In this document: positions 23,342 through 45,219 of the stretch, one piece after another
How positions within the stretch are numbered: the stretch's first letter is position 1
Layout: each line of letters starts with the position of its first letter
Assembly (NCBI GenBank): GCA_023645945.1
Contig: JALAIB010000008.1
Span: 1-54,306, forward strand
DNA: 54,306 bases
Direction of reading: 5' to 3'
Origin: Diploschistes diacapsis
Taxonomy: Eukaryota
Position numbers and translations under genes: made by a program
The notes under the pieces: generated by a model
What the model saw: the letters and a program-made list of their open reading frames with translations, nothing else
What the model was told of the DNA's origin: nothing
Databases searched by the model: none

Positions 23342-24437
23342 ATGTCTCAGGCACTGAAGCGTAGTGCTACACACGCTGGCTCGTGGTATTCTGGCGATGC
23401 AACTACTTTGTCGAATGAGCTCGACACGTGGCTATCGAATGTTCCGAGCTCAGTTGATGGGAAGCAGATTCCCCAGAGAGGGGGGAGAGTAATCATTGCC
23501 CCGTCAGTCTCTCTACTGTACTCATATTGCTCGCTTTCTCACTTGCTTCAGGCATGCCGGATATTCCTACTCGGGACCCAACGCCGCATGGGCCTATAAG
23601 TCTTTAGATGTCTCACAGGCGTGAGGTCGCCCCTGTTTCCTTAGTAGGACCATCGCTTAATAGAGCTGCAGGAAGCGTGTCTTTCTCCTTGGGCCCTCAC
23701 ACCACTACTACCTTACCAACTGTGCCCTCTCGGAGTTTGCATACTACTCAACGCCCTTCGGAGACTTGAAACTAGATCAAGATGTCATGGCCAAGCTCTA
23801 CGAGACGAAGAAGTTTGGCACAATGAAGCCAGACACGGACGAGGAGGAACACAGCATGGAGCTACACCTGCCCTATATCTTCAAGATACTGTCAAGGAAT
23901 TTCGCTGCGGACAGATTCCCCACCCTCGTCCCCATCTTGGTGGGAAACACAAGTGCCGGAGTAGAAGAAGATTTTGGTACGATCCTGGCACCGTATCTAG
24001 CAGACCCTGAAAATGTCTTTGTCGTGAGCTCGGATTTTGCACACTGGGGCATTCGCTTTTCGTATACAAACTATCTGTCCGACCTCGGCTCGGTGGGAAG
24101 CATTAGGTCGCTGAGAAGCTCGGACAAGAAGGTTGATAGCCCCAAGATTTACGAAAGTATTGAAGCGATAGATAAGATTACAATGGAGGCCATCGGGACA
24201 GGGGAACATGGCAACTTCCTGAAGTCGCTGAGGAAGACAGGTAACACTGTCTGCGGCAGACACCCTATAGGTATCGTCATGGCCGCTATGGAGCATCTGC
24301 AGGAAGAGTCAAAGATTGCAGACACCCGTTTTCAGTTTGTGCAGTACTCGAGGAGCAGTAACTGCATCAAGGTCACGGATAGCAGTGTGAGCTACGTCAG
24401 CGCATATGCGGTGATAGAGTCTACAGGTAAACAATAG
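23342..24437 (+). CDS. MEMO1/Mho1 family protein, 3 exons
   Basis: RSATHAGSWY, IAP-HAGYSYSG (spliced), RVFLLGPSHH, EEEHSMELHLP, SSDFAHWG, NTVCGRHPI, DSSVSYVSA. Confidence 0.94.
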
Positions 24438-25633: not shown

Positions 25634-28600
25634 TCACTGGATCAGCTTTTTGAGTATCACTTGGCACAACGAAACAAGCGTCTTCGCACCAACAACCTCC
25701 AAAGCGCTGATCTCAACGCTGAGCTCCGACCGTGCCCAGTTCCTCAGCTCCACCGCAACGAGGGAATCTATACCATAAGTCGTCAGGGGCCGAGAAGCTT
25801 CCAGAGGCTCGCTCATGCCCAAGCTCTTCATCAACACTCCGTTCACAAGTTCCACGCACGAGGCCAATAGCGTGGCCTGGTCGACCTGGGTCTCGCCCTT
25901 GCTCGCGCTCTTGAGCATCGCCAAGTGGCTGTCTTTAGCATCCATAGATCCACCAGCGCCACCAGCGCCGGGCCGTAGGGCGCTAAAACGATGGTGTGGC
26001 TGCAACGGCGATGCAGAGGTGAGCTCGCGGGGGATGCCCGTAATCAGCTGCGCCGTGCTCGCAGGGTTGATGGGCGACGAAGTTTGCTGAAGAATGCTGA
26101 AGCGCAAGATCTTGTGCAGAAGCGATTCGTTGATCATTCTCCATCCTTGCGCTTCAAGACGGCGGCTGAGGTTCTCGCGCTCGACAAAGTATCCCACATC
26201 TTCAATAACACCAAGGTTGACCGAGCAGGCCGGTAGGCCCATCGATTGCCGATAAGTGGCGAAGACGTCGAGGAAGACGTTGCCAGCGCTGTAGTTTGCC
26301 TGGGCCTTTTGCCCGACAACACCGCTAACACTGGAAAGTAGAGTGAAGAAGTCGAGCTTGTTGCCTAGTTCAAGGGCTACGTTGTGCAGGTTCCAGGTAC
26401 CCTTGATCTTGGGATCAATCGGTTCACGGAACTCCCGGGCTGTCATCCTTGGGAAAACCTTGTCCTATTGCAGCGTGTCAGATTAGCTTCCAGCTTCCAT
26501 GGCAGCAGATCGGTGCTAGACTCACTCTTAGCACCATGGCTCCCTGTATGATACCACCAATGGGCTTCGTAGCGCTCTTGAAGCACCTTCTAACATCATC
26601 CGCTTGTGTGATATCGCCACGAACAAGATCAACGTGCGTTCCCATTGCGTTCAGGTGGTAGATGACACCCTTACTGGCCTCGTCATCGTAGTTGCTGCGA
26701 GATAGCGCGACCATATATTTGGCACCATGGCGGGCGAGGTATATGGCCAAACTACCGCAGAGGCCCTTGAAACCTCCGGCAATGAGGTACGATACATCTG
26801 ACCGGAGCTTCATAACGGGAAGGGCGGGTCGAATCTGTAGTTCTCCATCAGCTATGTCTGAAGCCGTCCGTAGCAAATCAAGACTTACCGGTACATTGAC
26901 CATGCTTCTATCGCTGTCGGTGATAACAATCTTGCCCATGTGCTTACCATCACGCATATATCGGAATGCATCGACAACGTTTTCGAACCCGAAAGTCTTG
27001 CCAATGTAGAGGGGCTTGATGTGGCCTTCGGCAACGAGCTTGAATATTTGACCAAGTAGTCTGCAATAACAATTAGTATGGAAAGCTCCACCGTGAAGGA
27101 CAGACTTACCTCGCCATGGTAGCGCCAGAGACGCATTGCAAAGACAGATCGAAGGCACGATAAGAAGCGTTCCAGTTGAAAGGCTCCATTGACAAGCTGT
27201 TGCGGTCCAAGATGTCCTTCTTGCCAATCTCAATGAAGATACCGTTCTCAGCAACACAACGCCAAGTTTCGTGGAGCATGTCGCCGGCAAGTGAGTTCAG
27301 AATCACGTCTATCCCACGTCCGTTGGTAGCCTTCATCAGCTCAGGAGCGAATGCAACAGAGCGTGAGTTGAACATGCGCGATCGTGGAATTCCGTAGTTT
27401 TCTTCGAGGAACTTCCGCTTCTCTTCCGAGCCAACGGTGATGTAGATCTCTGCTCCAAGATATCTGGCTATCTGAATAGCTGCCATTCCGACACCACCCG
27501 CTGCCGAATGGATCAAGACGGTTTGTCCCTTTTGGAGATTGGCTAGGTCGAAGAAGCTGTATACTGCGGTGAGGAAACAAACGGGCAACGTGGTGGCTTC
27601 TTCGAATGTCATCCAGTTAGGGATACGGTGGACGCCGCCGGCGACGCTCTTGACTCTGTTGGCGAAGCAAGCACCATCCTTCCTCACCACAGCAACTCTG
27701 TCGCCGACTGATAGCCAGTCCACGCCGTTGCCGACTCGCGTGATGATACCGGCGCATTCCAGGCCGAGCACCTTCTCGTTACAGGGGACGAAGCCCATAG
27801 CGTGTGCAAGATCCTTGAAGTTCATTGCAGCGGCGTGGACTTCCACTTCGACGAATCCGTCTTCAACCACCTCATGGTCATTGACTTCACCGTAGCCCAA
27901 AGTGTCAAGCGTTCCAACACGCGCACTCATCAATCGTGCAGTCTTGGGGTTGCCGTGGAGTGCTTCGAGAACAGGTTCAGGGCCAAATGTTGCGTCCTTC
28001 TCCGATTGATTGACCAAGTCGTCGGGTAGGATACGGCTGATGTGAAGCATGCCACCTCGCTCGACAAACTCGTAGTCGTGCGGCTCCAAAGTGTCGACGG
28101 CCCTAATACGTTTGAGAACGGTGTGGATGGTGCTCAAACTCTGCGATGCGGTGTTGGACTCGAGGTCCAAACACGCCACCATGACTGTGGGGTCTTCAGA
28201 GTGAAGAGACCGCGCAACACCGTTGAACAGACTCTGTTCGGGAAGGGTGATGTTCATGTGGCCACCCTTGGTCACCCAGAGCAAGCGGCACTTCTTTGCA
28301 ACGAGCTGCTGCAGTGCTTCGAATTGGTTGTCGCGCAGGTTCGAAATCATGGGAGCGAACATTTCATCTAGGACAAGAACGGTGCTGTCCGCAGGGATGT
28401 CGTCGCACGGCAGGTCGTGCTCCACCATTTGCCAGCCACAGCTCGAGAGAAGATCCTTCGTGGCGTCCTGGGCTCCATCACGTGGTTGAAAGTGCACGAG
28501 ATGGACTTGGGGATCGGCTCCAAGACTCTCGTTAGCCTTCGCAGCAAGGGAACCAAAGTAGGCAATTTGAAGACCATCTTTGGAGTCTTTCGAGGCTTCG

Positions 28601-31600
28601 CTTGGAAGCACCTTCTCGGCGCCGGTAAGGGACAGCTCGCATGGCACCCTGCTCTCCGACCGATGCAGCACAAGCAGGAAACCGGTTTCAGAAAGCACCT
28701 GCCGCGCAGCTTGCATCACGCTCTGTACTGCTGATGAGAGGTCCGACACTTTAAGGATGACGAGGTCAAACTTCTCCTGAGCCTCTAAGCCGTCGAATGG
28801 CTTCTCGGAGTTGTTCTTACCAAACTCAATGCCGCCGTAGTTTCCATACTTTATACGAGCGTCGATCAGGTCGTTCTCTCCTTGCAAGGACAAGTAATAT
28901 TGGCAGTTGGCTCCCAATTCGGAAACATGCGGCCTGACCTGGTCAATCCACAGGCTCTCCACGCCCTCGACAAGGCTAGTTTCCATGATCCTCAGGCTTG
29001 GATTTTTGTGAGCAATAAGCTCGATGGCCTTGGCAGTCGTTGCTATCGTTCCAGTTTTGTCCAAGTCCGATGGGGCGGCAGCTTCAGTCAGGAGGATCTT
29101 GGAAAGGTGTTGCTGGTTAGCAAAGGTGATATCAGGCTGCCAGGTAACATGCAAATAAGTGTGTGCCAGGTGAGCGTCGTTCGTGGCGTCAAGGCTGTGG
29201 TATCGAAGGCCAGAGAGTCGCATTACCATCTCACCATTTTCGGGATTGAAGACGGACACGTTGGACTTGTAGCGCCTTGCGTCGTCGATTCTCCCAATCT
29301 TGGTGAACTCTGCATCGGCCACGGCCATGCCCTTTGCGGGCACCGCAGATTGAGCATGAATGGTAAGCTCGTCAATCATCGCGGGCAACATTAGATTGCC
29401 AACTGAGCTCCTATGACCGCTCCAGAGGGACGCGGCACCGGTCTGGAAGCAGGAATCGATGGTGACAGGGTGCATTGGGTAACGTGACTGGGGCAGAACG
29501 GACTCCGGAGCGTCAAAAGACACCAATGCCCTGTTTCGGCGCGATCCTGCGGTTGACTCGACCTCCAGTTGTCGACGGAAGCCAGGACCAAAACTATAGC
29601 CAACGTCGAGCATAGCTTTGTACCAGATAGCGGCTGGCGAGCTATGTTTCAGGGGCTCCAGATCGCTGGCCGTACCAACTTGCTTGGTCTGCTCGCCCAG
29701 GGAAATTAATCCCTGGCAGTGGTCGCTGATGATGTCCTTGACGATGGACGAGATTTTGAACTCGTGCCAGGATTCTTTGGTGCTAGTACAAGGCGTGAGG
29801 AGAAGGAGAACCTTGGATCCCTTGTCATCATCTTCGAGGGGGAGAGTCCTTGAGAAGGTGACGTTACGAAGCTTGTACATTACCTGGTTAACCTGAATAT
29901 CGTCCGCAAGGCGACCGGTGGCCTTGCTCTTTTGGTAAAGCGCTTCGACTGCCATGGCGACGTAGCCAGACCCCGGCATGATCACGCTGTCGCCGAGCTT
30001 GTGGTCACGAAGCCACGGCATCTCGGAAAGCTTGATGGTTTTCTTGAACTCCGGTTGTGTCCAAGGAGTTCCGAGAATCTTTGTGCCGATGAGATCGTGA
30101 TGAAGGAACTTGCGGAATCGCCAATCCTTGCTGGACTCGCTCTCGTGCCAGAACTTGGTGGAGTGATCCCAAGAGTAGTTTGGTAGATCGACGATGAACG
30201 CCGGTGGTGCAGACTCGCTGTCTTTGTTGACCTGAGTCAGATCTATTGGGTATCCGTTGGTGAAGAGCCTTCCTGCAAGTCCGAGTAGCGTCGGCAGAGC
30301 ATCCGAGCCTCTCTTCCATGCCGATGTATAATCAACCTGGACGGAAGCGGCCTTCTTGATCTGGTTGAGGGGACCTGCCAAAGCGTTGCTAGGGCCGAGT
30401 TCTATCAACAGATCAAGACCCTCGGGCTGGGTGATCATCTGCTTGACAGCTTGGTTGAACAGAACCGGCGACACCATGTTCTGAACCCAGTAGCTGGGGC
30501 CAAGAACTTTTTCGACCTTCTTGCCAATTGTAGATGAAAACATAGGTCGGCGATCCTCGGGCAAGGTTTCAGGCCACTCGACGTTGTTCTCAAGCAGGTT
30601 CTGGTACTCGTCCGAGATGACATGCATGTACCGAGAGTGATAAGCTGCCTCGACTTGGAGCAGCCTAGCGAAGTGGCCATCGCCCTTGATTGTCTTTTCG
30701 ACAACCTCCAACTCTGACCGTTGTCCGGAGAGAGTGACGCTCTCGGGACTGTTGATGCATGCGACCTCGACCGACGTCTTTTCCAAGTAGGGCCGAACTT
30801 TCTCCACGCCGAGACCAACCGCAAGCATTCCTACGCGCACATCATACCTGGCATTAGAGGTTGCCTTGCCGCGGTAGAAGGCGATCTTGATGGCTTGCGC
30901 GGGCGTCAAGGTGCCGGCTGCTACAGCAGCTGCAATCTCACCGGATGAGTGGCCGACCACTGCCTCGCAGGACACGCCAAACTTATTGAGAACGGCTAGC
31001 ATGGCGAGTTGAAGAGCGGTAACGAGAGGCTGAGAGAATTCTGGGAGCTTCAGTTGTTCTCCGCTGCGCGGTTTCGTGATCTCGTCGAGAATGTTCCATT
31101 TCGGTGCGTCCGGAAGGCTCTGAAGCACTTGGTCCAGATACTTGACTTGCTCAACGGCAGCTGGGAAAGTCTTGAGAAGGTCCCTGCCCATTTCTGGCCA
31201 CTGGGCACCCTGGCCGGTGAACACGAATCCAATCTTAGGAGGTTCGCTTTTTGTGCTGTCGGCGATCAAAGATTGCATGTCGAGAGTCTTGCTTGCTGCA
31301 ATCGTGTATCCGCGTCGGAAGAGCTTACTACGCTTCTCGGACAGAGTGTATGCCAGGTCGCGCAAGCTCACACTGACAGAAGGGTCCGAGAGGTGCCTGT
31401 CCAGCGCAGAGTACTGGGATTTGAGCGACTCGTCGTTGTTGGCCGAGAGAACGAGGAGGTACGGCCTTTCGACAGTCTCTTCGTCGGCGAAAAGATCGGC
31501 TTCCTCTGTGAGGTAAGAAGAGACGTGCCTGCTCACGCCAACAGCGGCGTCCACGATGATGTGAGAATTGGAGCCACCGTAACCGAAGGAGTTGACGCTT

Positions 31601-32958
31601 GCTCTGCGGAACGGCACAGCCGGCCATTTTGTGGTAGTCCTAGAAGGAGCGACTCGGAGCTTCTGGAAGTCAATGTTAGGGTTTGGGGTGATGAAAGTGG
31701 GATTGCCCGGGATGATGCCCTTCTCGAGCGAGAGGACGGCTTTGAGCAGTCCGGTGATACCTGCTGCGGGTTCGGAGTGGCCCAAGTTGCTCTTAACGGA
31801 TCCTATACGCAGCGGCTTGTCTGGCGAGAAGCTGTCGGAGAAAACCGAGGCGACTCCTTTGACTTCGATGGCGTCTCCAGCTCGTGTACCAGTGCCGTGG
31901 CACTCGACATAGCTAGTCAAAGACAGATCAGTGATACCGGCGTTGGCGTAGGCCTGTCGGATGGCTTGGGCTTGAGCGTCTGAATTTGGGCTGGCAATAC
32001 CCGCCGTCCAGCCGTCGCTGTTCGAAGCTGAGCCGCGAATGATTGCTCGTATCGGGTCGTTATCCTTGATAGCATCATCCAGGCGCTTGAGGAACACCAT
32101 GTTCACGGCCTCGGCTTTGATGTAGCCATCGGCCTTCGCGTCAAAGGTGTGACACTTTCCAGAAAGCGAAGCAGTGCCGTTGGCGCCCATATGGTGGTCC
32201 ATCACATGCTCGGGGCTAAGGTAAATGTTGCAACCAGCAACGATTGCTCCGCTGATCTCTCCGGTTTGAAGGTATCGTGAAGCAACATCCAAGCCGGTCA
32301 TGCTTCCAGAGCACGCAGTGTCAATAGTCATACTCGGGCCCTTGATGTTGAGAAAGTGACTGATTCTGTTGCTAAGCATAGCTCGACCGATCCCAACGGT
32401 ATTCGCAGCTGAGCGATCCTCGGGATCACGGGTCTGCATATCCGCGTAATCGCAAGCAAACGAGCCTACGAAACATCCCACGGGCGCTCTGTCGAGCTCC
32501 TCCAGCGTGACGCCTGCGTTCTCGAGACCTTCATAGACAACCTCGAGTAACTGTCGCTGCTGAGGGTCCATTGCAATAGCCTCTAGCTTCGACAACTTGA
32601 AGAACTGTGCATCTATGTCTCTAGGATCCACGTTCTGAAGGTACATTCCTCCCGGTGAGGCCATGGTCTTGTTGCGGAGGGATCCATCGTAGTGAGTATC
32701 GATGTTGTACCGTGATGTTGGAGGCCTATTCTTCGCAATGCCGCCCCTTTCGATGAACTTCCAGAACTGTGCGGGGGTGCTGCACTCGTCAGGGAGACGA
32801 CATGCCATACCAACCACTGCAATGGGCTGCTGGACATTTCCCCTCCTGACGTTCTGGGCTTGTTGAGGATTGTTGGCATGGTGAGCGCTGTTGACTCCAC
32901 CCGTATAGTGACCGTTAACGCCATTCATCCCGTTAGAGCCGTTGTGGTTGATTCCCAT
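25634..32958 (-). CDS. Highly reducing iterative type I polyketide synthase, KS-AT-DH-(pseudoMT)-ER-KR-ACP, ~2386 aa
   Basis: Exons 32958-27110, 27060-26889, 26834-26526 and 26464-25634 join in frame (7161 nt). KS: DTACSGS, ECHGTGT, KSNLGHSE. AT: GHSSGE, AAYHS. DH: DHKLGDSVIMP, HPVTIDSCFQ. ER: LIHSAAGGVG. KR: IAGGFKGLC, VLRD, QANYSAGN. ACP: GIDSLVAVELRNW. No TE or R domain. Confidence 0.97.
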
Positions 32959-33619
32959 TTTGAAAACCTAGAAACGAAAAAAAAGCAGTATACAAGGAGA
33001 GTAAAAGTTGGATCGGGGGATGCTTCAAGATATGACTTTATATGGCAGCCGCACCTTGCATTTTATATTGATCAGGGGAAGCTCCAGTAGACCCTCAGCA
33101 CCCTGAGCCTGTCTAACCAGTTGCTGCCACGCCGCACCAGCTCGTCTCACCCCGCGGCAGAGATGGCAAAATCTTTCCGAAACAGACTACTCATAATGAG
33201 GTTGTCTCGACTTCGAGGTGAGCTACGCTGCGCCGCTGGTCAGCATCTGTCTCAAACGTTCCAGTAATATAAGACATCCTGGCTGAAGGATGGTGGATAT
33301 GACTCAATACTACCTTTCATTGGCACCACTCAAAGCTGACCACCAAGGATAACGGGGTTGGCTATCGTCAAGAGGAAGTAAAGGCCGGCGGCTGATGGGG
33401 GCTTTCTCATAGCTTTGTCTATAAAAAGACAAGCTCCTGCCACGGTCACAGAAGGGCAGAACATCACTTCCGTTCAAAATCGATTCAGCCGGTGAACAAC
33501 AACACATTGTCTATCTTGGCTTGTTACTTCGTGCCTTATTAACTTACAAAAGGTGCTCCCTGCATACCTACCTCTCATCTCCCCAAAGCAGACTCAACGT
33601 CCAATCGCATTCCTCCGAA
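32959..33619. promoter_or_regulatory. Bidirectional promoter region between the PKS and the thiohydrolase, with candidate TATA boxes
   Basis: The divergent ATGs are ~660 bp apart. TATAAAA lies on the minus strand at 33061-33067 (toward the PKS) and TATAAAAA on the plus strand at 33420-33427 (toward the hydrolase). Confidence 0.55.
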
Positions 33620-34619
33620 ATGGCCGGTCGGGAAGACGTGGAATTCAAGACCATCGATGGTCTCGTTCTAAGGGGCGTCGTGTATCCCGCTAAAGAGCGA
33701 GGTCCCGGCGTTGTAATGAGTCCAGGGGTAAGGTTCACCAGCTCCTGATCCCGCGGCTCTGCTTTTTGAGGCTCACAATCGCCACGTGTAGTTCAACGGC
33801 GTCAAGGAAATGGTGGGACTGCCTAGCGCGGCCGCAGCCTTCCAGGATGCAGGCTTCACCGTTCTTGCGTATGACCACCGCACGACCGGTCTCAGTGATG
33901 GAGAGCCAAGGAACGATATCGACCCATTCAAGCAGATCGAGGATTACTCCGACGCCTTGACCTTTCTCTCGACTCACTCGATGGTGGATTCAGCCCGCAT
34001 GGGCATTTGGGGGATGTCACTGTCAGGCGCCGTGGCGCTGTGTACCGCATGTTTCGATCGCAGGGCACGCTTCGTGATCGCCGTGTGCCCCGCCACTCAG
34101 TATCAATACAACGAAAGGAAGCTCTCCAACGTGCTGTCCCGGATCGCCAAGGATCGCGAGTCTCAGGTCAAGGGGAACCCGCCATTCTACATTCCTATGC
34201 TCGACCAGGCGGGCGAGAACCCTGCAGGGTTCAACCTAGGGGTGGACAAAGATGCGGCTATGCGGATCCTGGCTGCTCAGGACGAAACGATCTCGACACG
34301 CCAGGCCTTGGCACCAAACCATGTCAACAGGACAACGATCCAGTCCTACAAGAAGCTTCTGATGTGGAGCCCTTCATACATGTGGAAGCAGCATCTGCTC
34401 ACTACTCCAGCCATGTTTGTTGTGCCGGAGCTGGACGAGTTAATCTCAGCGAAGGCGCAGCAGGAGTACTTTCAGCTCCTCCCAGGACCAAAGAAGATGC
34501 ACATCCAGAAGGGCCGTGGACATATGGACATCTTGGAGGGGGAAAGCTTGCCAGGTGTGATGCAGTTGCAGATTGACTTCATCCACGATTCTTTGGATGG
34601 CAAGGTCGGTCGACCATAG
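33620..34619 (+). CDS. Alpha/beta-hydrolase, PKS-partner thiohydrolase/thioesterase (Bref-TH/Fma-AT-like), 2 exons
   Basis: Spliced at intron 33728-33791: [19 protein letters not shown]...MSPG-FNGVKEM...[29 protein letters not shown]. Nucleophile WGMSLSG, acid ELDELI, His GRGHMD. Confidence 0.88.
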
Positions 34620-35580
34620 GTTCGGATATTTGGAATGGCATAGAGGCTTGCATTCCTTGGTTAGTTAGAGTTTACTAGTGATGTAGTAGCAACATAGAGA
34701 ATTGAATTTGAAGCTGTGGTGCTGATAACCGAGAGCACGTTTGCACGTTACAGTTGCAATTTGATACAACAGCCAATGTAGTGTAACTTGCTAGCAGATT
34801 ATCGTTTAGCGAGTTTTCTGCCACAGCACCTAGATCAGGCTAGATGTAGACGTAGTGTAATTAAACGGGTAACGCTGTTATTAATACTGCCTACTAGTAC
34901 TAGCGGTACCTTAGCTACTTACTAGTGCCATCCGCTTAAAAAACCCTTCTGCAACCTCTGAATCAGGAATTGCTGCACGTGCCGTGCTCAAAGCAGTAAT
35001 GCTATCTCGAAACCCTTCGGGACTCTCTTTTTCCGGCTCAGAGTTGCATTCGACAGCTTCTTGGTGCTCTCGGGACTTGAGCATCTTCCTTTGCCTCCCT
35101 GTTACTAGTTCCTGTAGCACCAAGAGCGATGAAATAACAAATGATCTTTACGTAATAGCGGGACGCAAAGCTGAAGAACGCTTCTTCCGAATTTGTTTCA
35201 GATATCGGGTTTCCTTCCAAAGCTATCGCTTTCGATCCTATCACTGGCCAACTCGTGTCTCTGCAGTTATAGGCTGAACATCTTACGTTGTTGAGCAAGG
35301 GTTCACAATGTAACGTGAGGGGGGCCACTTCGGCGCGGTGCGGTGATTACAGGCTTACAGCATGACCAACACAGTCACGGTCGGCCATTACTGGCCTTGT
35401 AAGGCAAACAGCAATTCGAGCATCGTGCTTCCCATGTGCGAGCTCGTGTCTTCCTACTCCAATTCAGCAAGCAGAGGGGCAACTCATTGCATCAGAGAAT
35501 GAGCAATTTTGACAAGCATCACCCATCCATAAGCCTCTGCTCACTTTCTTGTCGAGTCTCTCTTTCCTGCGGGCGACATC

Positions 35581-37510
35581 ATGTCTTTGCCAATCATTTT
35601 CTCTCCTCGCTCCAGCGTGATCATCCCGGGGTCGATACTCGAGTTTCCTGGGCTCACTGCTTTACCTGCCTTCCCGGAGGAGCCTGAGGATGAGTCCCCG
35701 CCGTCTCCGGCGTGCAAGCGGACGACAGCACAGATTGCCGTGATCATGATTTCTCTGAGCGCCTCTTGCTTCGTTGCTGCCCTTGATGTGACGATAATAG
35801 CAACTGCCTTACCCGCCATTTCCGAATACTTCCAGTCGCAGTCGGCATACACATGGGTCGGCACCGCATACATCTTGGCCAACACTGCCAGCACCCCTTC
35901 GTGGGGTAAGGTGTCAGACATATGGGGCCGGAAGCCCATCATGCTAATGTCGGTGGGCATCTTCCTCGCGGGCAGTCTCATGTGTGCTTTGGTGAACAGC
36001 ATGCCAGCTTTCATCGCCGGTCGTGCTGTTCAGGGCTTCGGTGCTGCCGGCCTGATCACGCTTGTCAACATCACTATTAGCGATCTGTTTTCTATGAGGG
36101 ATCGGGGCATGTACTTTGGGCTGATATCCATTGTATGGGCCTTCGCCAGCGGTGTGGGACCGGTGCTGGGTGGCTTGTTTACACAAAAACTTACGTGAGT
36201 ACTTCGATCCTCAAGAAGCTTACCGAGCTCTTGTACATTGGTTTGTGTGGCTGACACGCATTTTTCAGGTGGCGGTGGTGCTTTTACATCAACGGTACGT
36301 TCGGCCCTATGATTCAGGTTGAAGAGGTGTGTATCAGAGCACATTGCTAACTCGATGATAGTGCCGATCACCATAGCGGTCTTTTTGCTCCTGCTCTTCA
36401 CTCTAGAGCTTGAAACGCCGAAGATTCCAGTATGGGAAGGCTTGAAGGCAGTTGATTGGAGTGGCAGCGCCCTGATAGCCGGAGCGACTCTGATGCTTCT
36501 TCTGGGTCTCAATTTCGGCGGCGTCAATTATCCCTGGGACTCGGCCATGGTTCTCTGCCTCATTGTCTTTGGCGCTGTCGTTGGCGCCATCTTCGTCGTC
36601 AACGAGTGGAAACTTGCACGATACCCAATCATCCCACTGTACCTATTCCGCCAGCGGTACCGAATAGCCTCTTTCGCAGTATGCTTCTGTCACGGCTTCG
36701 TGTTCATGGGTGAGGCGTATTACATTCCGCTATATTTTCAGGCAGTACTAGGCACGAGTCCGCTGATCTCTGGCGTGTATCTCTTGCCATTCATACTGTC
36801 GTTGACGATAATGGCCGCATTTACGGGATTCTTCATACAAAAAACTGGCAATTATATTATTACAGTTTACGTCGGTTTAACTCTCTTAACCCTCGGGATA
36901 GGCCTGCTTATCGATCTTGACGTTGAAACAGATTGGGTGAAGATCATCCTTTTCCAGATCGTTGCCGGCATGGGTGTTGGTCTCAATTTCGAAGGGCCGC
37001 TACTTTCCATGCAGGCTACAATTGCGCTCGAAGACGTCGCGACCGCCACAGCCACCTTCAGCTTTGTCAGGTCCATTTCGACGGCCATATCTATCGTGAT
37101 TGGTGGAGTAGTCTTCCAGAATCAGATGGTCAACGAAGGGCCGCAGCTTGTGGCCGGCTTGGGCCCCGAGCTAGCCAGCCAGCTCGGCGGCGGGAACGCT
37201 GCTGCAAACATTGGAATAATCGGTACGCTAGCACCTGCGCAGCAGGTCATTGTCCGACAAGCGTTCTACAATTCCATAAGATCAATGTGGATCATGGTCA
37301 GCATCCTTCGTATTCTTTCGCTAGAAACTAGCTAATCTCGTACAGTATGTCGGAGTCGCGGCAGTCGGCCTGTTTGCCGGCGCCTTTATCGGCGTTCACA
37401 CCTTGAGCAAAGACCACAGAGCCGCGACTATCGGACTGCCGACCGGGAGCAAGAAGGAGAATAGGATCACGGAGGGTTATCCATTAGGCGGCTATACGGA
37501 GTATAGTTGA
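35581..37510 (+). CDS. MFS drug:H+ antiporter (DHA2, 14-TMS) efflux pump, 4 exons
   Basis: ALDVTIIATALPAI, WGKVSDIWGRK, GRAVQGFG, GPVLGG, micro-exon WRWCFYIN (~36269-36294), YYIPLYFQAV. The last exon YVGVAAVGLF...EYS* ends at 37510. Confidence 0.93.
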
Positions 37511-37650: not shown

Positions 37651-38634
37651 CTACCGTAGGCCGCGCGACTCGTTGAAGGGCTCGCACTTCCTCTCGCACC
37701 ACTCCCAAAACTTGGTAGCATGTCCCTCTTCGATTGCATTTGAAACGTCTTTCCTCGGACCACCCTCCATCACACGTCCCCATGGCATGACGTAGGCGCC
37801 GTTGCTGTCCGCATTGATTTCGGGCGACAGCCCGGCGTAGAGCATTGTATATGCGCCCATCTTTACGGGGTGGAGGCTGGGCCTCATGAACATCATGAGC
37901 AGCGAGGACTGGTGTCTCCACACCTCGGTGTCCAACTGGCCTGGATTCTGCGCCACGCTGATGATGCCGTCTCCGCCATAGCGCTTCGCACCCTCGACCG
38001 CCAGCAACCAGTTCCCTGCCTTGGAAGCCGCGTAATCCCGCGGCGGATTCTGCGTCCTGCCGGCGTCGGCGAGAGAGAGGTCGACCCCGTTCGCCGGTGC
38101 GTGTGTCTCGATGCTTAGGCTTGCTGTCCATACGATACGTACGCTGCCGGGATGAGAAGCTGCTGCTTCCTGCATGTGGCGAATCAGCTGCTGCGTCAGG
38201 AAGAGCGGGGCGACACAGTTCACGCCGATATGGCCCTCGAGATGCTGTTTCGTGCTGGTCCCAACCGGAACGCCTCCGACGCCCGCATTGTTCCACAGAA
38301 TATCGAGGCGTGATTCTTGAGCGGCGAAGGAAGCAGCCGTCGCCGAAATGGTCGACAGATCGTCGAGGTCGAGATGCAGATACTTCAAGGCACCAGGTTT
38401 GGGTGGGGTGGGTTTGCCAGCAACGACCGATTGGATTGCAGCTTTGGCACGCTCTTCGGATCTGCTCGCCATGTAAATTGTTGCACCCGTGGGGTACAGA
38501 ATTTTGATCAGCTCAAGCCCGATACCGGAGTTCCCGCCGGTCACGATGAAGACTTTACCATCCTGTCGAGGGACATCCTTCTCCGTAAAGTTAGGCGGGG
38601 GCGGGAACCATTGCGTCCAGAAACTGCGTAACAT
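37651..38634 (-). CDS. Short-chain dehydrogenase/reductase, intronless, cluster-associated
   Basis: 327 aa with TGGNSGIG, WNNAG, catalytic YAASK and QNPG. Confidence 0.92.
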   Translation of the reverse strand: MLRSFWTQWFPPPPNFTEKDVPRQDGKVFIVTGGNSGIGLELIKILYPTGATIYMASRSEERAKAAIQSVVAGKPTPPKPGALKYLHLDLDDLSTISATAASFAAQESRLDILWNNAGVGGVPVGTSTKQHLEGHIGVNCVAPLFLTQQLIRHMQEAAASHPGSVRIVWTASLSIETHAPANGVDLSLADAGRTQNPPRDYAASKAGNWLLAVEGAKRYGGDGIISVAQNPGQLDTEVWRHQSSLLMMFMRPSLHPVKMGAYTMLYAGLSPEINADSNGAYVMPWGRVMEGGPRKDVSNAIEEGHATKFWEWCERKCEPFNESRGLR

Positions 38635-39059
38635 TATGCAGGTAGTTCTGAGAAGTATGTTCTAAGCACTGAATTTAGAGAGGAGGAGTTTGCACTGAAC
38701 TGGCAAGACCTGGTAAATTTCAATTTGCACTCGCACTTGAGGGACAATAAAACAATGGTCTGGGTATGAGACTTGGATGGGGACAAACCCTCGGGGATGC
38801 TTGGACGACTCGTCATAAGCCTCCCTGAATCATGGTAGCAGCCTGAGGAACTGATGGGAACACCACACGGCTGGTTAACCTGTGTATGTAGTGGATCAGC
38901 CGTCAAGGTTCAGCCCGCAACTGCACTCCTAGAGGCCCCTTAGACTCAGCTCCGTTGTCCAAATTAGGCGTTGCGATTCAGGAAACGGAAACGGAGAACG
39001 AGAAGCCTGGAAGCCTGGAGGTTGCAAAGGGAGCCTAGACAATTTCTTGTACCCATACA

Positions 39060-39121: not shown

Positions 39122-39562
39122 GCGTTGCAATAAAGTAGTAGTCCCCTTTAGCCAACTTTAACTAGTGTCATCGTCCAACTGTTAGATCGCCCCGCTTCCT
39201 ACTTCTGGGGCCAAAGGCAAAAAGCAGGAATTAATGAGCTAAATAAGCGGCACGAGCTAACAGTTGGGGTAACGATAGAGGTTGCAGTAGATACTTACTA
39301 ACTAGGTGGCCCGATCCAATAAGGATAATCCTCATGACTGCAAGCACTCACCCTTCAGCTATTCCCAAGATTGAATAGATTTGAACGCTCAGATACCATC
39401 AAGGTTATACTAGGTTTCAGGATACCTGTGTTAGAGTACAATCTATATATACATTCTAAACTGACACTGTAGTGAGTTTTAATCCCCGGGTCAGTCACAC
39501 ATTTTGACCGCTTTGTTAATCAACAGAAATCCTTCCGGAACAAGACCGCAGACCCGAGCCGG

Positions 39563-42500
39563 CTACATCACGCTCAGCCAGATTGTGCTACAGAGTCCTA
39601 CATTTATCATCAAATGGTGATAAAGAGCCCAGAGACCGCCGAATACGTATTTCGGCGCATGGGCTATCCAAATGAAAGGCTCCCTCCTCAGCACCGTACA
39701 CGCAACCATAAACGCCAGGAGACTGAACGCTGTAAGAAGCGTTTGCAGTGCCAGATAATCAAAAAGAGGCCTTCCTGGCTGGTCCACCAAAGTACCGTCA
39801 GGGCACGGTTTCGGACTTCGCACCGCTTTCGTATTGCCCTTCCTGCTCGTCAGGTCGGTTGTACCCTTTGGCGCGCTGCCTAAAGCCTCTTGCTTGATCT
39901 CGACCCATCGAAGGAGAAACCTAAGGCCGTTGCAAGACCACCAGATGGGTCCGGCCCAATTTGTAGCAAGAACTTGGAGTGGTACCCCTACAGCATTGTA
40001 ACCTACAATGCCGTTATATCCATTGGTGAGGTCGATTGATGAAATGGCGTTGCTGTTGCCAAAGACAAAGTACGAGTTTTGAGCGAGAAGGAAAACCAGG
40101 CCGGAAGTTTGCAGTGGATGCAGCCCAAGTGGTACAGATTCTGCATACGTGGTCAGCTGTATTGCCATCACTTGGATGTGCTGAATCAGCACAACAGGCG
40201 AGGATTATTACGTAGAGCGTCAAGCTGGAATTTCAGAATAGAGAATAGCGGAATATTATGGGCTCGAGATTGAGTCAGAAGATACAAACTCAAAAGCTCC
40301 AGGATACCGCTTAGAGTGTCTGCAATCTCACATCAGTCTACGAGCTTGGAAGTAACGAGATACGCACCTTCTCTTGTCCGACGACCTTTTCGCTTCGACT
40401 GCAGCACAAAGTAAGCCAGTACCGCGAGAATACCTGAAAAAAGGGCTCTAGCGATTGGCGTCGCATCTGATTCCTCGGCTTGCTGCAGCAGCCAATGTGG
40501 GGAAAAGGCTACTAGCTGAGGGCTGTCTCGAGCGGTTGTGATGAATTTAAAGATCAGTGCCGTCAAGCACAGAGCAGTAGCAGCAAGCGGAGCGGCAAGT
40601 GTTGCTTTCGGTCCACCGTCATCCGCAATGCCCTTGGACAATCGGACGGCTGTACCAAAGTATGTTGCAGCAATACCGACCCAGAGTATGGAAGGAAACC
40701 TGTTGAAACATTCGTGAACGAGGTCCGGTATCCTGTACTGCGTGTCGCCAGCTTGATTCCAACACTGGGTCGCAAATTGCAAGAGGGCTGGCAGCACCGA
40801 AGACAGTATGGACGCATTCCTCGTTATGCTTGTACACAATCAGCATCGTACCAAGTCCAAGAATAACAGCAGAAATTAGTTTATGCGCGACAATCCTTAC
40901 CTTCTGCAGCCCAAGCAGGTCAGCCACGCTAGCGAGCTCCAGTACCAGAAATGATGCTCCTCTTGAACATAGCGACTGCTGAACATTGTCGAGCTATATA
41001 AGGCCGAAAGTGTTCCCAAAGCCAGGCGATCGGTGGTCCATTGTAGTCTCAGAGGACTGTATGCAAGAATTAGGAGGATGACGGCGGCGCACACGCCAAG
41101 GATGCCATATGAGAGTAGGGGAATGCTGAGGTTGCCAGCCGTTACACCCATGACCCGTTGCGCATGCTTACAGAACTGAAAGACGTCAGCCGCCGATATC
41201 ATAGCTTTTTCGAATAAAGAGAATCGAATGTACGCACAGCGGTTACGACCAAGCGTACATCTTCCAAACTGGTATTTGAACTTTTCGCAATCTCTAGCCG
41301 CTCCTCAACTTGTCGCCAGGAGCAGGAAAGTTCGGTTCTGCCCAAATGATCTTCCTTACAATCAAGGTTGGGCAACACAGAGTCCGGATTGTTGGTCTTG
41401 AACGCATCCATTAATTGCATTCCGTTGCCCTGCAGAAGCTGCAGATGGTGGGAGCCCTTTCCCCAAAGGGGTAAGAAATCCTCAATGAATACACCCATAT
41501 TGTTGGAGGGGATTCCAAAACCTAGGAGGCCAGCCAGAGTAGGCACAATATCGGACTGGTCCACAACCTTGTAGTAATCGAATCCGTTACCTCCGTGAGC
41601 TGTGGGTGATTCCAGCCCCTTGGAGATCGACTTGAGGTGAGGTGACATGAAAACTAGCGCTGGAGAGGATTCTCCCGGCGAAGAGCCGCCGTGGTTACCC
41701 TTCTCGTTCATCCCATGATCGCCGACTATCACAAATAGGGTAGATTTCAAGTGCGGCTCCTGCTCCATTGCGCCGTAGATCTGCCGTACGATGCCATCCA
41801 TTTGGCGCTGCTTTGGTAACATATATGGACTATGGCCTCTTTCAGTCTCAGTCTATAAGTTGGATTCTCGGGAGCGCTTCACCTGTTCGGTCCGCCCACA
41901 TGACCGACATGATCCATGCCGGGGAAATGCAGCACGAACGCGCTCCAATCGTCATTGCGCAGTTCTTCTGGGATATGTCTTGTAACATTGTTGTCGACTT
42001 GAATGAAGTCCTGTAAAGATATACGGTTCAGCTTCCGTTGCGTCCATAACTTGGGGGTAGAGAATACCGGCACGTAGAAGGCATGAACACCTTCAGAGCG
42101 GTCAAAGACATCGGGGAATAGCTGCAGCCATGTGTTCTCCCCGTAGAATATCATTTTCCCAGTCTCCTTCTCTTTTAGCCGTCTCAGCCAGGTATCTTCC
42201 GTAAGGGCGGATGCAGCCTCCGAGTCTGCAAGATTGAGTATGACATCGAGAAAGGAAGGGTTTGAGCCGGTCGTCATGCTCTTGATGCGAGAGATCGTGA
42301 GACTGGGAGGGCTGGCATGGGCAGTGAAGGGAATAGCCTCCCCAGAACGTATCAGACTCAAGTCAAGTCAGCTACTCAACAGGCTGGGCCAGCAGGGAAC
42401 GGGTCTCTTACCTCTGTACATAGCTGAACCCAGATTTATTCGAGTACACAAAATCGCTATTGCAAATTAGAAGATCGGTATGAAGCTATGCGTCGGCAGC

Positions 42501-42721
42501 AAGGAATACCTCCGCATCGCATCAACCACCATGAATATAACTTTGTCGAAAGGAGCAGTCTCCGACCCGCCTCCATTGGGAATACGTTGGTCATCTTCGA
42601 GCCTCGCAAGATCCGGAAGTACAGGCTTGTAGCGAAAGAAACCTGCCGCAAACACAAGCACAGAGAATGGGATCAAAGTGTTCGCAAGAAATAAAAAGCT
42701 GTTCTGTTTGAAGTGACCCAT
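39563..42721 (-). CDS. GPI ethanolamine-phosphate transferase 2 (GPI7/PIG-G) homologue, 9 exons; probably a cluster-specific paralogue
   Basis: Hand-spliced in frame: N-terminal TM VLVFAAGFFRYKP, KVIFMVVDAMR-SDF, PPSLTISRIKSMTTGSNPSFLD, LHFPGMDHVGHVGGP, VGDHGMNEKGNHGGSS, QSDIVPTLA, SRYVQEEHHFWYW, LTQSRAHNIPLF, GNSNAISSIDLTNGYNG, IAHAPKY. This is an alkaline-phosphatase-fold domain plus a multi-TM C-terminus. Confidence 0.9.
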
Positions 42722-44724
42722 TTTTGCACCACATACACGCAAAGCTTAGATGGAGCGTGGTATGATCGACTGGGCGTCAAACTTCTCAGAGTCTATCTTC
42801 CATACTCTAAGCAAGAGACGTGTGTCAAAGTATATTCCTCGAAACCGTCCCTTACTTGAGGCGCCAGCAACACACCAGCTACCGTATATACAGATCTGTT
42901 ATGGCGTATGTTTCTCCGACTGATTGAGAGCGTCCACCAACTCGCTTCCAAATGCCGATGGAACCTTCGTCCTGCACCACTCTTCCTGCCAGGGCCGAAG
43001 ATGACAACTCTCAGACAGACAATGAATATGAGACATCAGCTTCCCTTCCGTTATTGGTTCGCCAATGCTGATAGGATTGAAAGGTTCTTCTCTAATGCCA
43101 ACAATCAATCATAAACCAATTTGTTCATGATTCTATGTTTGTATGCGGCTGATGCGAGTTGCATTAGGTGGAGTTCCTGGTTGGGGGCTTATGGAATGAA
43201 TGGATCCTTGACGGGAACGTGGCTGCATACCAGGTAACAGGTTTGGACCAGCATCGTTTTGCGTTTTGGCGACTTTTCAGCCTTTGCGTGAGTGAGTCTT
43301 GAAACAGCCACCTTACCTGCCACCACTCTGGAATGGCTCTAGCTGGCAGTGGTAGTTGCTCGCGTGCTCAAGTACGAGGTTGAGAAACAGCCCTCCATGG
43401 GTGGGATTCAGCTTTTCGTACGCTTGACCTAGATCGGAAAGCTTAGGTAACTGACTGATGCAAGCACCCGGGTTGTTACTCCGGGTTACGTTACCCCGTG
43501 GCTATTTTGCTTTGACGCCACAGACCGACTGTGGCTAGTAAGTGTTTTGTTACCGTACAAGCTTGTAATTTCTTTTTTCTTTCTCACCGCCTCCATGGTC
43601 CTTGGCCCCACGGGGCATAATCACATGTTTCTAGCATTAAAAAACAAACCCACGTGCGGCTGAGCCATCCGGTAGGGCTGCACACCCCTTCCAGCTCATA
43701 CAGATAGACCCTCCCCGGTAAAAGTCCGGTACTTCAGGTACAACTCAATCACACAAAACGTGCATACAATAATTGCGAAACTAGCTGGAGGTAGTTGTTT
43801 CGCAGCCTAACGGCATGCTTGCTTGCTCACGTACACAGCAGCAATGCCACACCTACTCCCTCAAGCCGTTGATGGCTAGAATGCGACCACAGCCAGCTAT
43901 GTCAAAAAGCCACTAACTTCGGTTACAGAATCGGAGTCACCGAACGGGGACGGGACACAACTCACTCACGGTGCAACTCTGACGGCTTCTGCCCTCCCGT
44001 CATCCGTTGCAGTTGTATTCAATGGCTTCGGCGCTCATTATAAAGTATATCATGGAGTAGAAAGAAAGGGCATGCACCGTCGGCTGGCGCCATCTTCAGC
44101 ATCAAAGTAACCGCAGCTGCTTAGTTTTCGGCAACACGGCCCGGTCCGAGCTTGTCTCCCCTCTCCCCTCTGTAACCATGATATCGAGGCACTACTGTTC
44201 TGAATCCTACGCAGTCCTTGTCTGGATTTGCGCAGTGAAGGGTCGTGTCAAATAAGTATTACCTACCGATATAATTCTGTGAATCGAAATCCTTCGGTAT
44301 TGGGTCAGAACATATCATTTTAACACAAAGAATGAAAGGCGGGAAGAGCAAGACTTGCTGTGTTCCAAATTCGGTCTAGCCTGGCCAACGGTATGAACGA
44401 TAAGTTTGATAACGAATCTTAGTAGATCTGAACAACACCTACATTTGTCGTCTGCCTGCTTAAGATCACGAGAGCTCAATAGGGCGAAGGTCTTGAGGGA
44501 ATGATTAGGAGAGCCTGTTAGAATGTTAAAATGACACTACTCAAAACGCCAGACCCCTCGGACGGGGAAATTAAACACAGTTCAGTCAAGCATCATTGAA
44601 TTCCCGGCTGCGTTAAATGTATAAAGACGTGGAGGTGGCATGACTAATAGTCAGCCAGCCAACGGGACAGACGTGATGAGAAACCATGAATATAGTGTTA
44701 TCCTCCTATAGAATCTGCAATTCG

Positions 44725-45219
44725 CTATACAATCTCAATGGTCATGAGAAAGCCAACAACAAAACAGACGCAAGCCGGAAGATCGACAGCCAGCGTCCTT
44801 GCCGCGTGCATCCGTAGCCACTTCTCCATTGATAGAGTGCTGTTTCCCTTCGGCCGGTCCCCTCGAATGTCATCAAGTAGCTTCAGCGCAGTCGGTCCCC
44901 ACAGGAAGTATCCCAGGCTGAACGCGGTACCCGCCCAGTACCACCGATCGGCGCCTCTTACCAAAAGGCTCGAAGAGCTCGTGAAGATGTTGGCCGTTCC
45001 GGAGATGAATGATGTTGAAAATCCCGCGACGAGGATGCAAACAGCGTTTTGCATCCAGCGAGCAAACCACGAGGGAAGTAAGTTGTTTGCACGCTCTCTA
45101 TACTGTGGTTCAATCCAGCAATTGAGGAAGATGTATTCGTCATGCGCAAAGACCAGATTGGTGGTTGAAGAGATCACGGGTATGAGACGAAGGAGTTTGA
45201 GGCTAACGAAAGCGTCCAT
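44725..45219 (-). CDS. Small integral membrane protein (DUF1772/anthrone-oxygenase-like appearance)
   Basis: 164-aa intronless ORF with about 4 hydrophobic segments, WYWAGTAFS and C-terminal WLRMHAARTLAVDLPA. The family is a pattern-level guess. Confidence 0.65.
   Translation of the reverse strand: MDAFVSLKLLRLIPVISSTTNLVFAHDEYIFLNCWIEPQYRERANNLLPSWFARWMQNAVCILVAGFSTSFISGTANIFTSSSSLLVRGADRWYWAGTAFSLGYFLWGPTALKLLDDIRGDRPKGNSTLSMEKWLRMHAARTLAVDLPACVCFVVGFLMTIEIV

What the first reader, a model, noticed from the sequence alone, without database searches (positions are those of the whole stretch)
39563..42721. GPI7/PIG-G homologue looks like a neofunctionalised tailoring enzyme
Seen: the metal ligands and nucleophile are intact (D of VVDAMR, second-position Thr in PPSLT, DHVGH, GDHG, NHGG). 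The surrounding motifs deviate from the housekeeping consensus as I recall it: PPSLTISR vs PPTVTMPR, LHFPGMDHVGH vs LHYLGLDHIGH, YGENTW vs YGDDTW, FIWIAHAPKY vs FIWTVFSPKY. Inference: this is a duplicated ER GPI-anchor enzyme recruited to transfer a phospholipid head group onto a small molecule.
Basis: partly seen in the sequence, partly recalled or inferred. Interest (0 to 1): 0.72.

Follow-up and report, generated by a model that had tools for sequence, protein, structure and literature searches.

The report
Polyketide-cluster paralogue of GPI7 transferase
This gene is a diverged extra copy of a GPI-anchor enzyme that sits in a fungal polyketide gene cluster and most likely puts a phospholipid head group on a macrolide, a trick already shown in two other fungi.

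Summary
Positions 42721-39563 (minus strand) carry an intact nine-exon gene for an 888-aa GPI7/PIG-G-type ethanolamine-phosphate transferase (EPT).

The gene lies 6.6 kb from a highly reducing PKS that is 62% identical to CimlA. A stand-alone hydrolase 50% identical to thiohydrolase CimlB, an MFS transporter and an SDR lie between them.

In trees the EPT falls in a 12-row clade (support 100) that contains CimlC, the characterised macrolide-tailoring EPT of Colletotrichum incanum. It lies outside the species-like tree of housekeeping GPI7. An AU test rejects placing it with lichen-fungus housekeeping GPI7 (p 6e-59).

It keeps 105 of 134 columns that housekeeping enzymes keep at 95-100%. Of its 29 deviations, 22 fall where the clade also deviates.

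The two best-matching sequencing runs also hold a second contig, at about equal depth, that reads the exact housekeeping motif. A canonical GPI7 therefore probably co-exists.

Strain differences give dN/dS of about 0.22, and all listed indels lie in introns or the UTR.

Verdict: a new member of the akml/ciml/ptml-type family, here in lichen-metagenome DNA and without the usual P450.

The parts
39563..42721 (-). EPT gene (GPI7/PIG-G paralogue of the cimlC type), 888 aa. Exons: 42721-42510, 42456-42412, 42356-42068, 42010-41883, 41829-41259, 41175-40901, 40828-40368, 40319-40212, 40140-39566. Stop codon 39565-39563.
   Evidence: Splice model. End-to-end alignment with homologues. Pfam PF19316 on three exons. 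All 12 listed indels (of 19) in runs X2/X3/X4 lie in introns or the 3' UTR.
41691..42523 (-). Catalytic (alkaline-phosphatase-like, luminal) core with the predicted metal ligands and nucleophile intact: D67, T106 (42298-42296), D215/H216/H219 (41914-41900), D262/H263 (41720-41715), H271 (41693-41691).
   Evidence: T106, GDHGM and HGG are kept in all 12 rows of the cluster clade. The assignment of roles to these residues is recalled from the alkaline-phosphatase superfamily and was not tested here.
25634..32967 (-). Highly reducing PKS with domains KS-AT-DH-(structural NAD-binding region)-ER-KR-ACP. No methyltransferase or terminal release domain was found. It spans three reading-frame blocks; the exact start and the introns were not modelled.
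   Evidence: Pfam. It is 62% identical (residues 40-1300) to P0131, whose 90% cluster carries the name 'cimlA'. Best named hits are Penicillium mononematosum at 69% and Colletotrichum tofieldiae at 68%.
33792..34619 (+). Stand-alone alpha/beta hydrolase, the likely trans-acting thioesterase/thiohydrolase that releases and cyclises the chain. This is the main exon; a short 5' exon was not modelled.
   Evidence: Pfam Hydrolase_4. It is 50% identical to P0491 'Thiohydrolase cimlB' and 62-67% identical to hydrolases whose locus tags or contigs sit beside the best PKS hits.
35533..37335 (+). MFS transporter (two reading-frame blocks), a likely exporter.
   Evidence: Pfam MFS_1. An MFS gene is reported in the akml, ciml and ptml clusters (PMC8788809 section 16).
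37651..38661 (-). Short-chain dehydrogenase/reductase, a possible tailoring enzyme. It is not reported for akml/ciml/ptml.
   Evidence: Pfam adh_short. Cluster membership is inferred from position only.

Best explanation
The gene encodes a membrane-bound transferase descended from a duplicate of the ER enzyme GPI7 (Las21/PIG-G). It belongs to the CimlC/AkmlC/PtmlC lineage of cluster-embedded 'GPI-EPT homologues'.

Proposed mechanism:
1. The adjacent highly reducing PKS builds a reduced polyketide chain.
2. The stand-alone hydrolase off-loads and macrolactonises the chain.
3. The SDR may adjust an oxidation state.
4. The EPT takes a phospho-head group (phosphoethanolamine or phosphocholine) from a membrane phospholipid, using its intact alkaline-phosphatase-type site (Thr106 nucleophile, Asp/His metal ligands), and esterifies it to a hydroxyl of the macrolide.
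5. The MFS transporter exports the phospholipid-like product.

Shown here: paralogy, clade membership with CimlC, cluster context, an intact and constrained gene, and a co-existing canonical GPI7 motif. Inferred: the acceptor, the donor, the head group and expression.
For: Phylogeny
- FastTree on 153 rows puts the protein in a 12-row clade (support 100) with P0255. UniRef names P0255 'GPI ethanolamine phosphate transferase-like protein cimlC'.
- IQ-TREE (LG+C20 PMSF, 48 rows) recovers the same 12 rows with SH-aLRT 100 on a stem of 0.76 changes per column.
- The AU test rejects holding the window protein and Lasallia P0001 with 5 Lecanoromycete housekeeping GPI7 (delta lnL 323.8, p 6e-59).

Shared derived residues
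- The window protein keeps 105 of 134 housekeeping-conserved columns. The other 11 clade rows keep 65-85% and the 36 non-clade rows keep 95-100%.
- 22 of its 29 deviations lie where at least half of the other clade rows also deviate. At L752Q all 11 other rows deviate, 10 of them to Q. P108S is shared by 8 of 11, Q145R by 8 of 10 and P30R by 7 of 9.

Cluster context
- The PKS is 62% identical to the cimlA cluster representative.
- The hydrolase is 50% identical to cimlB.
- In Hypoxylon sp. NC1633 the clade EPT and the homologous PKS have accession numbers two apart on one contig. In Penicillium pulvis the PKS, hydrolase and EPT are on one contig with consecutive tags.

A second copy exists
- Lepidopterella palustris has both a housekeeping copy (P0054) and a clade copy (P0249).
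- In run X1 a second contig of 4010 nt (depth 97.6, against 99 for the window contig) matches only 42243-42277. In X2 there is extra depth of about 95 against 87.8 at the same place.
- The flanks of that contig, translated by hand in frame, read PTITMPRVKA...ILNFAESDT. This is the housekeeping consensus (tables 2, 7, 8).

Constraint
- Of the 40 listed differences to X2 (129 differences in all runs), 16 are synonymous, 11 non-synonymous and 13 non-coding. This gives dN/dS of about 0.22.

Function of the lineage
- PMC8788809 (section 16) reports that heterologous expression of akml and ciml gave macrolides bearing a phosphoethanolamine moiety or a derivative of it. It assigns the phosphate-ester step to the GPI-EPT homologue.
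Against: - Raw identity to CimlC is only 36%, lower than to housekeeping GPI7 (43-45%). Clade membership therefore rests on the tree and on shared substitutions, and long-branch attraction among fast-evolving rows cannot be fully excluded.
- The group tested by AU was chosen after the tree had been seen.
- No P450 was found in the window, although akml, ciml and ptml each have one.
- Three genes separate the EPT from the PKS.
- The best PKS and hydrolase relatives (P. mononematosum, C. tofieldiae, O. yallundae) were not shown to have an EPT.
- The closest EPT (Lasallia, 60%) was not shown to lie by a PKS.
- Evidence for the second GPI7 is about 95 nt seen in contigs of a metagenome and of one coded organism. 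It was linked to the same genome only by depth.
- No product or transcript was seen.
Confidence: 0.8

Rival explanations
1. It is the organism's ordinary housekeeping GPI7, which adds ethanolamine phosphate to the second mannose of GPI anchors and merely happens to lie near a PKS.
For: - It has the full GPI7 architecture and intact catalytic motifs.
- By plain identity its best matches after Lasallia are housekeeping GPI7 at 40-44%.
Against: - It falls outside the 103-row housekeeping clade and inside the CimlC clade.
- The AU test rejects a Lecanoromycete housekeeping position.
- It has lost 29 of 134 near-invariant housekeeping residues.
- A contig with the exact housekeeping motif is present at about equal depth in the same runs.
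Confidence: 0.03
2. It is a self-resistance or decoy copy. On this reading the polyketide inhibits GPI-anchor ethanolamine-phosphate transfer, and the cluster carries an insensitive GPI7 to protect the producer.
For: - Fungal clusters often carry a duplicated copy of the target enzyme (general knowledge, recalled).
- The catalytic residues are intact, and the gene is under purifying selection.
Against: - A resistance copy must still do the housekeeping job, yet this clade has lost 15-35% of the columns that every housekeeping enzyme keeps, including parts of the YGDDTW, TMPR and HLFIWTVFS motifs.
- Clade member CimlC and the akml homologue are credited with forming the phosphate ester on the macrolide (PMC8788809).
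Confidence: 0.07
3. It is a functional diverged EPT whose substrate is unrelated to the neighbouring PKS (for example another lipid or glycolipid), or it is a silent relic of a cluster that no longer makes a phospho-macrolide.
For: - No P450 is present and no RNA evidence exists.
- Three genes lie between the EPT and the PKS.
- The window and Lasallia pair is the least derived branch of the clade.
Against: - PKS, hydrolase and EPT are all homologous to the three core ciml genes.
- The same trio is contiguous in P. pulvis.
- The reading frame is intact over nine exons, with dN/dS of about 0.22 and indels only in introns or the UTR among those listed.
Confidence: 0.1

Closest known systems
CimlC (Colletotrichum incanum), AkmlC (Aspergillus luchuensis/kawachii) and PtmlC (Preussia typharum): GPI-EPT homologues of fungal macrolide clusters. 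Sources: Morishita et al. 2020, Org Lett 22:5876 (not held here; known only through PMC8788809 and recall), and PMC8788809.
   Same: - It is in the same clade as CimlC.
- It has the same partners: an HR-PKS of the cimlA family, a stand-alone hydrolase of the cimlB family and an MFS transporter.
- It shows the same pattern of lost housekeeping motifs (TMPR to TxSR, L752Q and others).
   Different: - It is only 36% identical to CimlC.
- It keeps the DHxGH motif, which 5 of the 12 clade rows including CimlC have changed to D[CNS]xAH.
- Its cluster has an SDR and no P450.
- The DNA comes from a lichen metagenome.
- AkmlC and PtmlC themselves were not in my trees. A. uvarum P0261 may stand for the akml type, but that is untested.
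Housekeeping GPI7 / Las21 (fungi) and PIG-G (mammals): GPI ethanolamine phosphate transferase 2.
   Same: - It has the same architecture: an N-terminal TM segment (residues 9-27), a luminal phosphatase-like domain and the PIGO_PIGG multi-TM region.
- The predicted catalytic Asp/Thr/His residues are conserved.
- It is 43-45% identical.
   Different: - It is not orthologous.
- It has lost 22% of the near-invariant columns.
- It lies in a polyketide cluster.
- A separate canonical copy appears to be present in the same runs.
Lasallia pustulata protein P0001/P0393 (SLM39831.1, KAA6406985.1), annotated only as a phosphodiesterase/GPI-EPT 2.
   Same: It is the nearest relative, at 58-60% identity over about 790-820 columns, and it shares the signature substitutions. 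It also comes from a lichen fungus.
   Different: Its genomic neighbours were not seen, and no Lasallia PKS was among the 120 best PKS hits.

Membership tests
Cluster-embedded GPI-EPT homologues (akmlC/cimlC/ptmlC type) | Common descent with a characterised member, apart from housekeeping GPI7 | tested here: met
   The 12-row clade with CimlC has support 100 in FastTree and SH-aLRT 100 in IQ-TREE PMSF. The AU test rejects the Lecanoromycete housekeeping position tested, p 6e-59.
Cluster-embedded GPI-EPT homologues (akmlC/cimlC/ptmlC type) | Encoded beside a highly reducing PKS of the macrolide (cimlA/akmlA) family | tested here: met
   A PKS lies 6.6 kb away on the same strand. It is 62% identical to the cluster representative that carries the cimlA name.
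Cluster-embedded GPI-EPT homologues (akmlC/cimlC/ptmlC type) | A stand-alone thioesterase/thiohydrolase (cimlB/akmlB family) in the cluster | tested here: met
   The hydrolase at 33792-34619 is 50% identical to 'Thiohydrolase cimlB' P0491.
Cluster-embedded GPI-EPT homologues (akmlC/cimlC/ptmlC type) | A P450 in the cluster (present in akml, ciml and ptml per PMC8788809 Table 2) | tested here: not met
   No P450 Pfam hit was found on any of the 73 reading frames scanned across the window (30 + 14 + 29). An accessory tailoring gene is probably not defining for the transferase itself.
Cluster-embedded GPI-EPT homologues (akmlC/cimlC/ptmlC type) | Transfers phosphoethanolamine or phosphocholine to a macrolide hydroxyl | not testable with these tools
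   This needs heterologous expression or a microsomal assay. The predicted catalytic residues are intact.
Housekeeping GPI7 / PIG-G | Domain architecture: phosphatase-like domain plus PIGO_PIGG membrane region | tested here: met
   PF19316 is covered at 1-78, 86-232 and 257-419 of 423. Homologues carry PF01663 and PF19316.
Housekeeping GPI7 / PIG-G | Retention of the near-invariant housekeeping residues | tested here: not met
   It retains 105 of 134 (78%), against 95-100% in 36 of 36 non-clade rows.
Housekeeping GPI7 / PIG-G | Orthologous (species-tree-like) position and sole copy in the genome | tested here: not met
   It lies outside the housekeeping clade. A contig with the canonical motif is present at about equal depth in runs X1 and X2. 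No whole genome was available, so the second copy is seen only as about 95 nt.

The most novel reading that the evidence does not exclude
The window and Lasallia lineage is the earliest-branching and least-derived branch of the cluster-EPT clade. It still has the DHxGH motif that CimlC lost, and it sits in a P450-less, SDR-containing cluster of a lichen- or rock-dwelling ascomycete. It could decorate a macrolide scaffold not yet described, giving the first phospholipid-like polyketide from a lichen fungus. It could also use a donor or head group different from the akml and ciml enzymes, and so show an intermediate stage of how a GPI enzyme was retooled.
Probability: 0.3. Interest if true: 0.55.

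Novelty: new member of a known kind. Interest (0 to 1): 0.35.

Why it matters
Phosphoethanolamine- and phosphocholine-bearing macrolides (eushearilide, JBIR-19/20, preussolides, and the akml and ciml products) are rare. PMC8788809 reports antifungal activity for the preussolides.

This locus adds a diverged member from a lichen metagenome to the enzyme lineage that installs the head group.

The comparison made here gives a practical way to tell tailoring copies from housekeeping GPI7. Plain similarity searches and current annotations do not: every clade member except CimlC is labelled GPI-EPT 2, alkaline phosphatase-like or hypothetical. The useful markers are:
- a single clade
- a long shared stem
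- signature changes such as TMPR to TxSR and L752Q
- loss of YGDDTW and HLFIWTVFS

It does not open a new kind of biology.

Tried and rejected
- Whole-genome search for a second GPI7: no genome is held. The question was approached through contigs of public runs instead.
- Earlier notes of this scan: none.
- RNA evidence: no RNA holder was listed, so nothing can be said on expression or on splice junctions.
- JGI metagenome scan with exon 5: 98 pattern matches, none confirmed. The permitted second scan was not used.
- Solved structures: only ENPP7, at E 5e-5 to the Lasallia homologue, so there was no structural mapping.
- Morishita 2020 (Org Lett): not held. Which head group each enzyme transfers is therefore only recalled, and a head-group prediction from the DHxGH versus D[CNS]xAH split was dropped as untestable.
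- Literature searches: 'lichen' + 'ethanolamine phosphate transferase' + 'polyketide synthase' gave 0 papers. 'GPI-EPT' + 'polyketide' gave only PMC8788809 in the listing.
- First gene model: it used a 41-nt eighth intron and gave 898 aa with a 10-residue insert that no homologue has. It was replaced by a 71-nt intron with a CTGAC branch site, giving 888 aa. The trees used the 898-aa model. The insert columns fall below the fill threshold, so they should not matter, but the trees were not rebuilt.
- Taxonomic class of the organism: not determined.
Full report
**What is there**

The window is fungal DNA with short GT-AG introns. On the minus strand, from the ATG at 42721 to the stop at 39565-39563, lies a nine-exon gene.

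My first model used a 41-nt eighth intron. It produced a 10-residue insert that none of seven compared homologues has. A 71-nt intron (40211-40141) with a CTGAC branch site removes the insert and gives 888 aa.

The protein has three parts:
- an N-terminal hydrophobic segment at residues 9-27;
- a C-terminal region that covers Pfam PIGO_PIGG positions 1-419 of 423 over three exons.

It aligns end to end with full-length GPI7 proteins. The coordinates and all six quoted motifs are confirmed.

**Is the deviation real?**

I aligned the protein with 36 GPI7 proteins outside the cluster clade: 30 Pezizomycotina and 6 more distant representatives. GDDTW is present in 34 of the 34 rows that have residues there. 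PT[IV]T[ML]PR, H[YF]LG[LM]DH[IV]GH and FIWTVFSPK occur in nearly all rows.

Of 134 columns at least 95% conserved in those 36 rows, each of the 36 keeps 95-100%. The window protein keeps 105, or 78%. The predicted catalytic residues are all kept: D67, T106, D215/H216/H219, D262/H263 and H271. The roles of these residues are recalled from the alkaline-phosphatase superfamily and were not tested.

**Surroundings**

Pfam scans of 73 reading frames show this gene order:

| Coordinates | Strand | Gene |
|---|---|---|
| 32967-25634 | - | Highly reducing PKS (KS-AT-DH-ER-KR-ACP; no methyltransferase, no release domain) |
| 33792-34619 | + | Alpha/beta hydrolase |
| 35533-37335 | + | MFS transporter |
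| 37651-38661 | - | SDR |
| 42721-39563 | - | The EPT |

No P450 was found.

The PKS is 69% identical to a Penicillium mononematosum PKS and 68% to a Colletotrichum tofieldiae PKS. It is 62% identical to C. incanum P0131, whose 90% cluster includes the entry named 'Highly reducing polyketide synthase cimlA'.

The hydrolase is 50% identical to 'Thiohydrolase cimlB'. It is 62-67% identical to hydrolases of P. argentinense, P. mononematosum, C. tofieldiae and Oculimacula yallundae.

**Family tree of the transferase**

A word-indexed search with exon 5 found no close relative. The best hit was Lasallia pustulata P0001 at 59% in the exon, and the rest were housekeeping GPI7 at 47-56% (120 of 604 hits listed).

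In a FastTree of 106 rows, the window protein, P0001 and one unnamed Logan protein form a clade with support 100. It lies outside a 103-row clade that follows fungal classes.

An exhaustive HMMER search with P0001 against 50%-identity representatives (150 of 3909 listed) brought in further rows. In a 153-row tree the window protein lies in a 12-row clade with support 100. Look-ups name the members:
- CimlC of C. incanum
- Hypoxylon sp. NC1633
- Penicillium pulvis
- Penicillium chrysogenum
- Penicillium chermesinum
- Aspergillus uvarum
- Epichloe festucae
- Monosporascus sp.
- a second Lepidopterella palustris protein
- Lasallia pustulata
- one unnamed Logan protein

Lepidopterella's other copy, P0054, sits in the housekeeping clade, so that genome has both.

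In Hypoxylon NC1633 the EPT and the homologous PKS have accession numbers two apart on one contig. In P. pulvis the PKS, hydrolase (tag 001950) and EPT (tag 001951) are consecutive.

An IQ-TREE PMSF tree of 48 rows recovers the 12-row clade with SH-aLRT 100 on a stem of 0.76. It attaches beside Dothideomycete housekeeping GPI7 (SH-aLRT 99), and Lasallia and the window protein branch first.

An AU test rejects holding the window protein and Lasallia with five Lecanoromycete housekeeping GPI7 (delta lnL 323.8, p 6e-59). The group was chosen after seeing the tree, and long branches are involved.

Plain identity would mislead. The window protein is 36% identical to CimlC but 43-45% identical to housekeeping GPI7. 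What ties the clade together is shared derived states. Of the window protein's 29 deviations from housekeeping-conserved columns, 22 lie where at least half of the other 11 clade rows also deviate. At L752Q all 11 deviate, 10 of them to Q. P108S is shared by 8 of 11, Q145R by 8 of 10, P30R by 7 of 9, S858A by 7 of 10, and Y431L and L851P by 6 of 10 each.

**A second, canonical copy**

No genome is held. The stretch was found whole in one lichen-metagenome run (X1, probably the source). It was found at about 97% likeness in a run of a coded organism (X2) and in a rock metagenome (X3).

When contigs were laid, a second X1 contig of 4010 nt matched only 42243-42277. Its depth was 97.6, against 99 for the window's contig. 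In X2 the same place shows extra depth of about 95 against 87.8 (my arithmetic from table 2).

The loose ends are identical in X1 and X2. Read by hand in the gene's frame, they give PTITMPRVKA upstream and (V)ILNFAESDT downstream. This is the exact housekeeping consensus of the Dothideomycete, Lecanoromycete and Leotiomycete rows. The window gene has PSLTISRIKS and ILNLADSEA at those places.

This is short evidence, about 95 nt, linked to the same genome only by depth.

**Is the gene alive?**

Forty of the 129 differences found across all runs are listed, and all forty are differences to X2. Of these, 16 are synonymous, 11 non-synonymous and 13 non-coding. The estimated dN/dS is 0.22 over 39566-41921.

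All 12 listed indels (of 19) in X2, X3 and X4 fall in introns 2, 3 and 6 or in the 3' UTR. This supports both the exon model and purifying selection. No RNA run was available.

**Comparison with what is known**

PMC8788809 (passages and section 16 read) describes the akml, ciml and ptml clusters. [quoted passage not shown] It cites Morishita et al. 2020 for the heterologous expression of akml and ciml. That paper is not held, and I recall only its abstract.

The window cluster has homologues of the three core genes and the MFS transporter. It lacks the P450 and adds an SDR. It is therefore a new member of a known kind, not a new kind.

**Rivals**

- Ordinary housekeeping GPI7: excluded as far as these data go, by the tree, the lost invariants and the second copy.
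- A self-resistance copy against a GPI-pathway inhibitor: conceivable, but it fits poorly with the loss of 22% of housekeeping-invariant columns and with the role reported for the lineage.
- A transferase acting on something other than the neighbouring polyketide, or a silent relic: this cannot be excluded without expression data.

**Verdict**

Novelty is modest. I put 0.8 on the tailoring-transferase reading and rate interest at 0.35.

Noticed in passing
Alignment (no window coordinates); the window equivalent is residues 214-219, 41917-41900: Five of the 12 cluster-clade rows (CimlC, Epichloe, Lepidopterella copy 2, P. pulvis, Monosporascus) have replaced the His of the DHxGH motif (D[CNS]xAH). 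The window protein, Lasallia, the Logan row, P. chrysogenum, P. chermesinum, A. uvarum and Hypoxylon NC1633 keep the His. The clade thus splits into two active-site types, which might relate to donor or head group.
   Followed up: partly
Tree: The cluster-EPT clade holds proteins from Eurotiomycetes, Sordariomycetes, Dothideomycetes and a Lecanoromycete, yet it attaches as one clade beside Dothideomycete housekeeping GPI7 (SH-aLRT 99). This suggests one duplication followed by spread with the cluster. It was not tested further, and the long stem calls for caution.
   Followed up: no
window 42243-42277 (tables 7 and 8): A second contig in runs X1 and X2 overlaps only this 35-nt conserved stretch. 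Its flanks encode the canonical GPI7 motif, so it is probably the organism's housekeeping GPI7. The motif type (PTIT, ILNFAESDT) matches the Dothideomycete, Lecanoromycete and Leotiomycete rows rather than the Eurotiales or Sordariomycete rows.
   Followed up: partly
window 42800-46700: About 4 kb between the EPT and the next recognisable gene has no Pfam match on any of the 12 reading frames of 70 aa or more that were scanned.
   Followed up: no
window 46743-48155 (+) and 49874-51181 (+): A family-2 glycosyltransferase and a GMC oxidoreductase lie downstream of the EPT. Whether they belong to the cluster is unknown.
   Followed up: no
window 7953-9352 (-) and 12691-13569 (+): An AMP-binding (adenylating) enzyme and a second SDR lie upstream among housekeeping genes: eIF4E at 6374-6973, a Y-family DNA polymerase at 17022-18806, Gpr1/Fun34 at about 20609-21653 and Memo at 23664-24437.
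   Followed up: no
window 333-4091 (+) and 14278-16308 (-): Two long open frames (1252 aa and 676 aa) have no Pfam match at E up to 0.01.
   Followed up: no
window 39400-42900: Near-identical DNA (roughly 96-98% alike) occurs in a run of a coded organism, in a rock metagenome and, in pieces, in two further coded organisms' runs of another study. The cluster-bearing fungus or its close kin is therefore not confined to one sample.
   Followed up: partly
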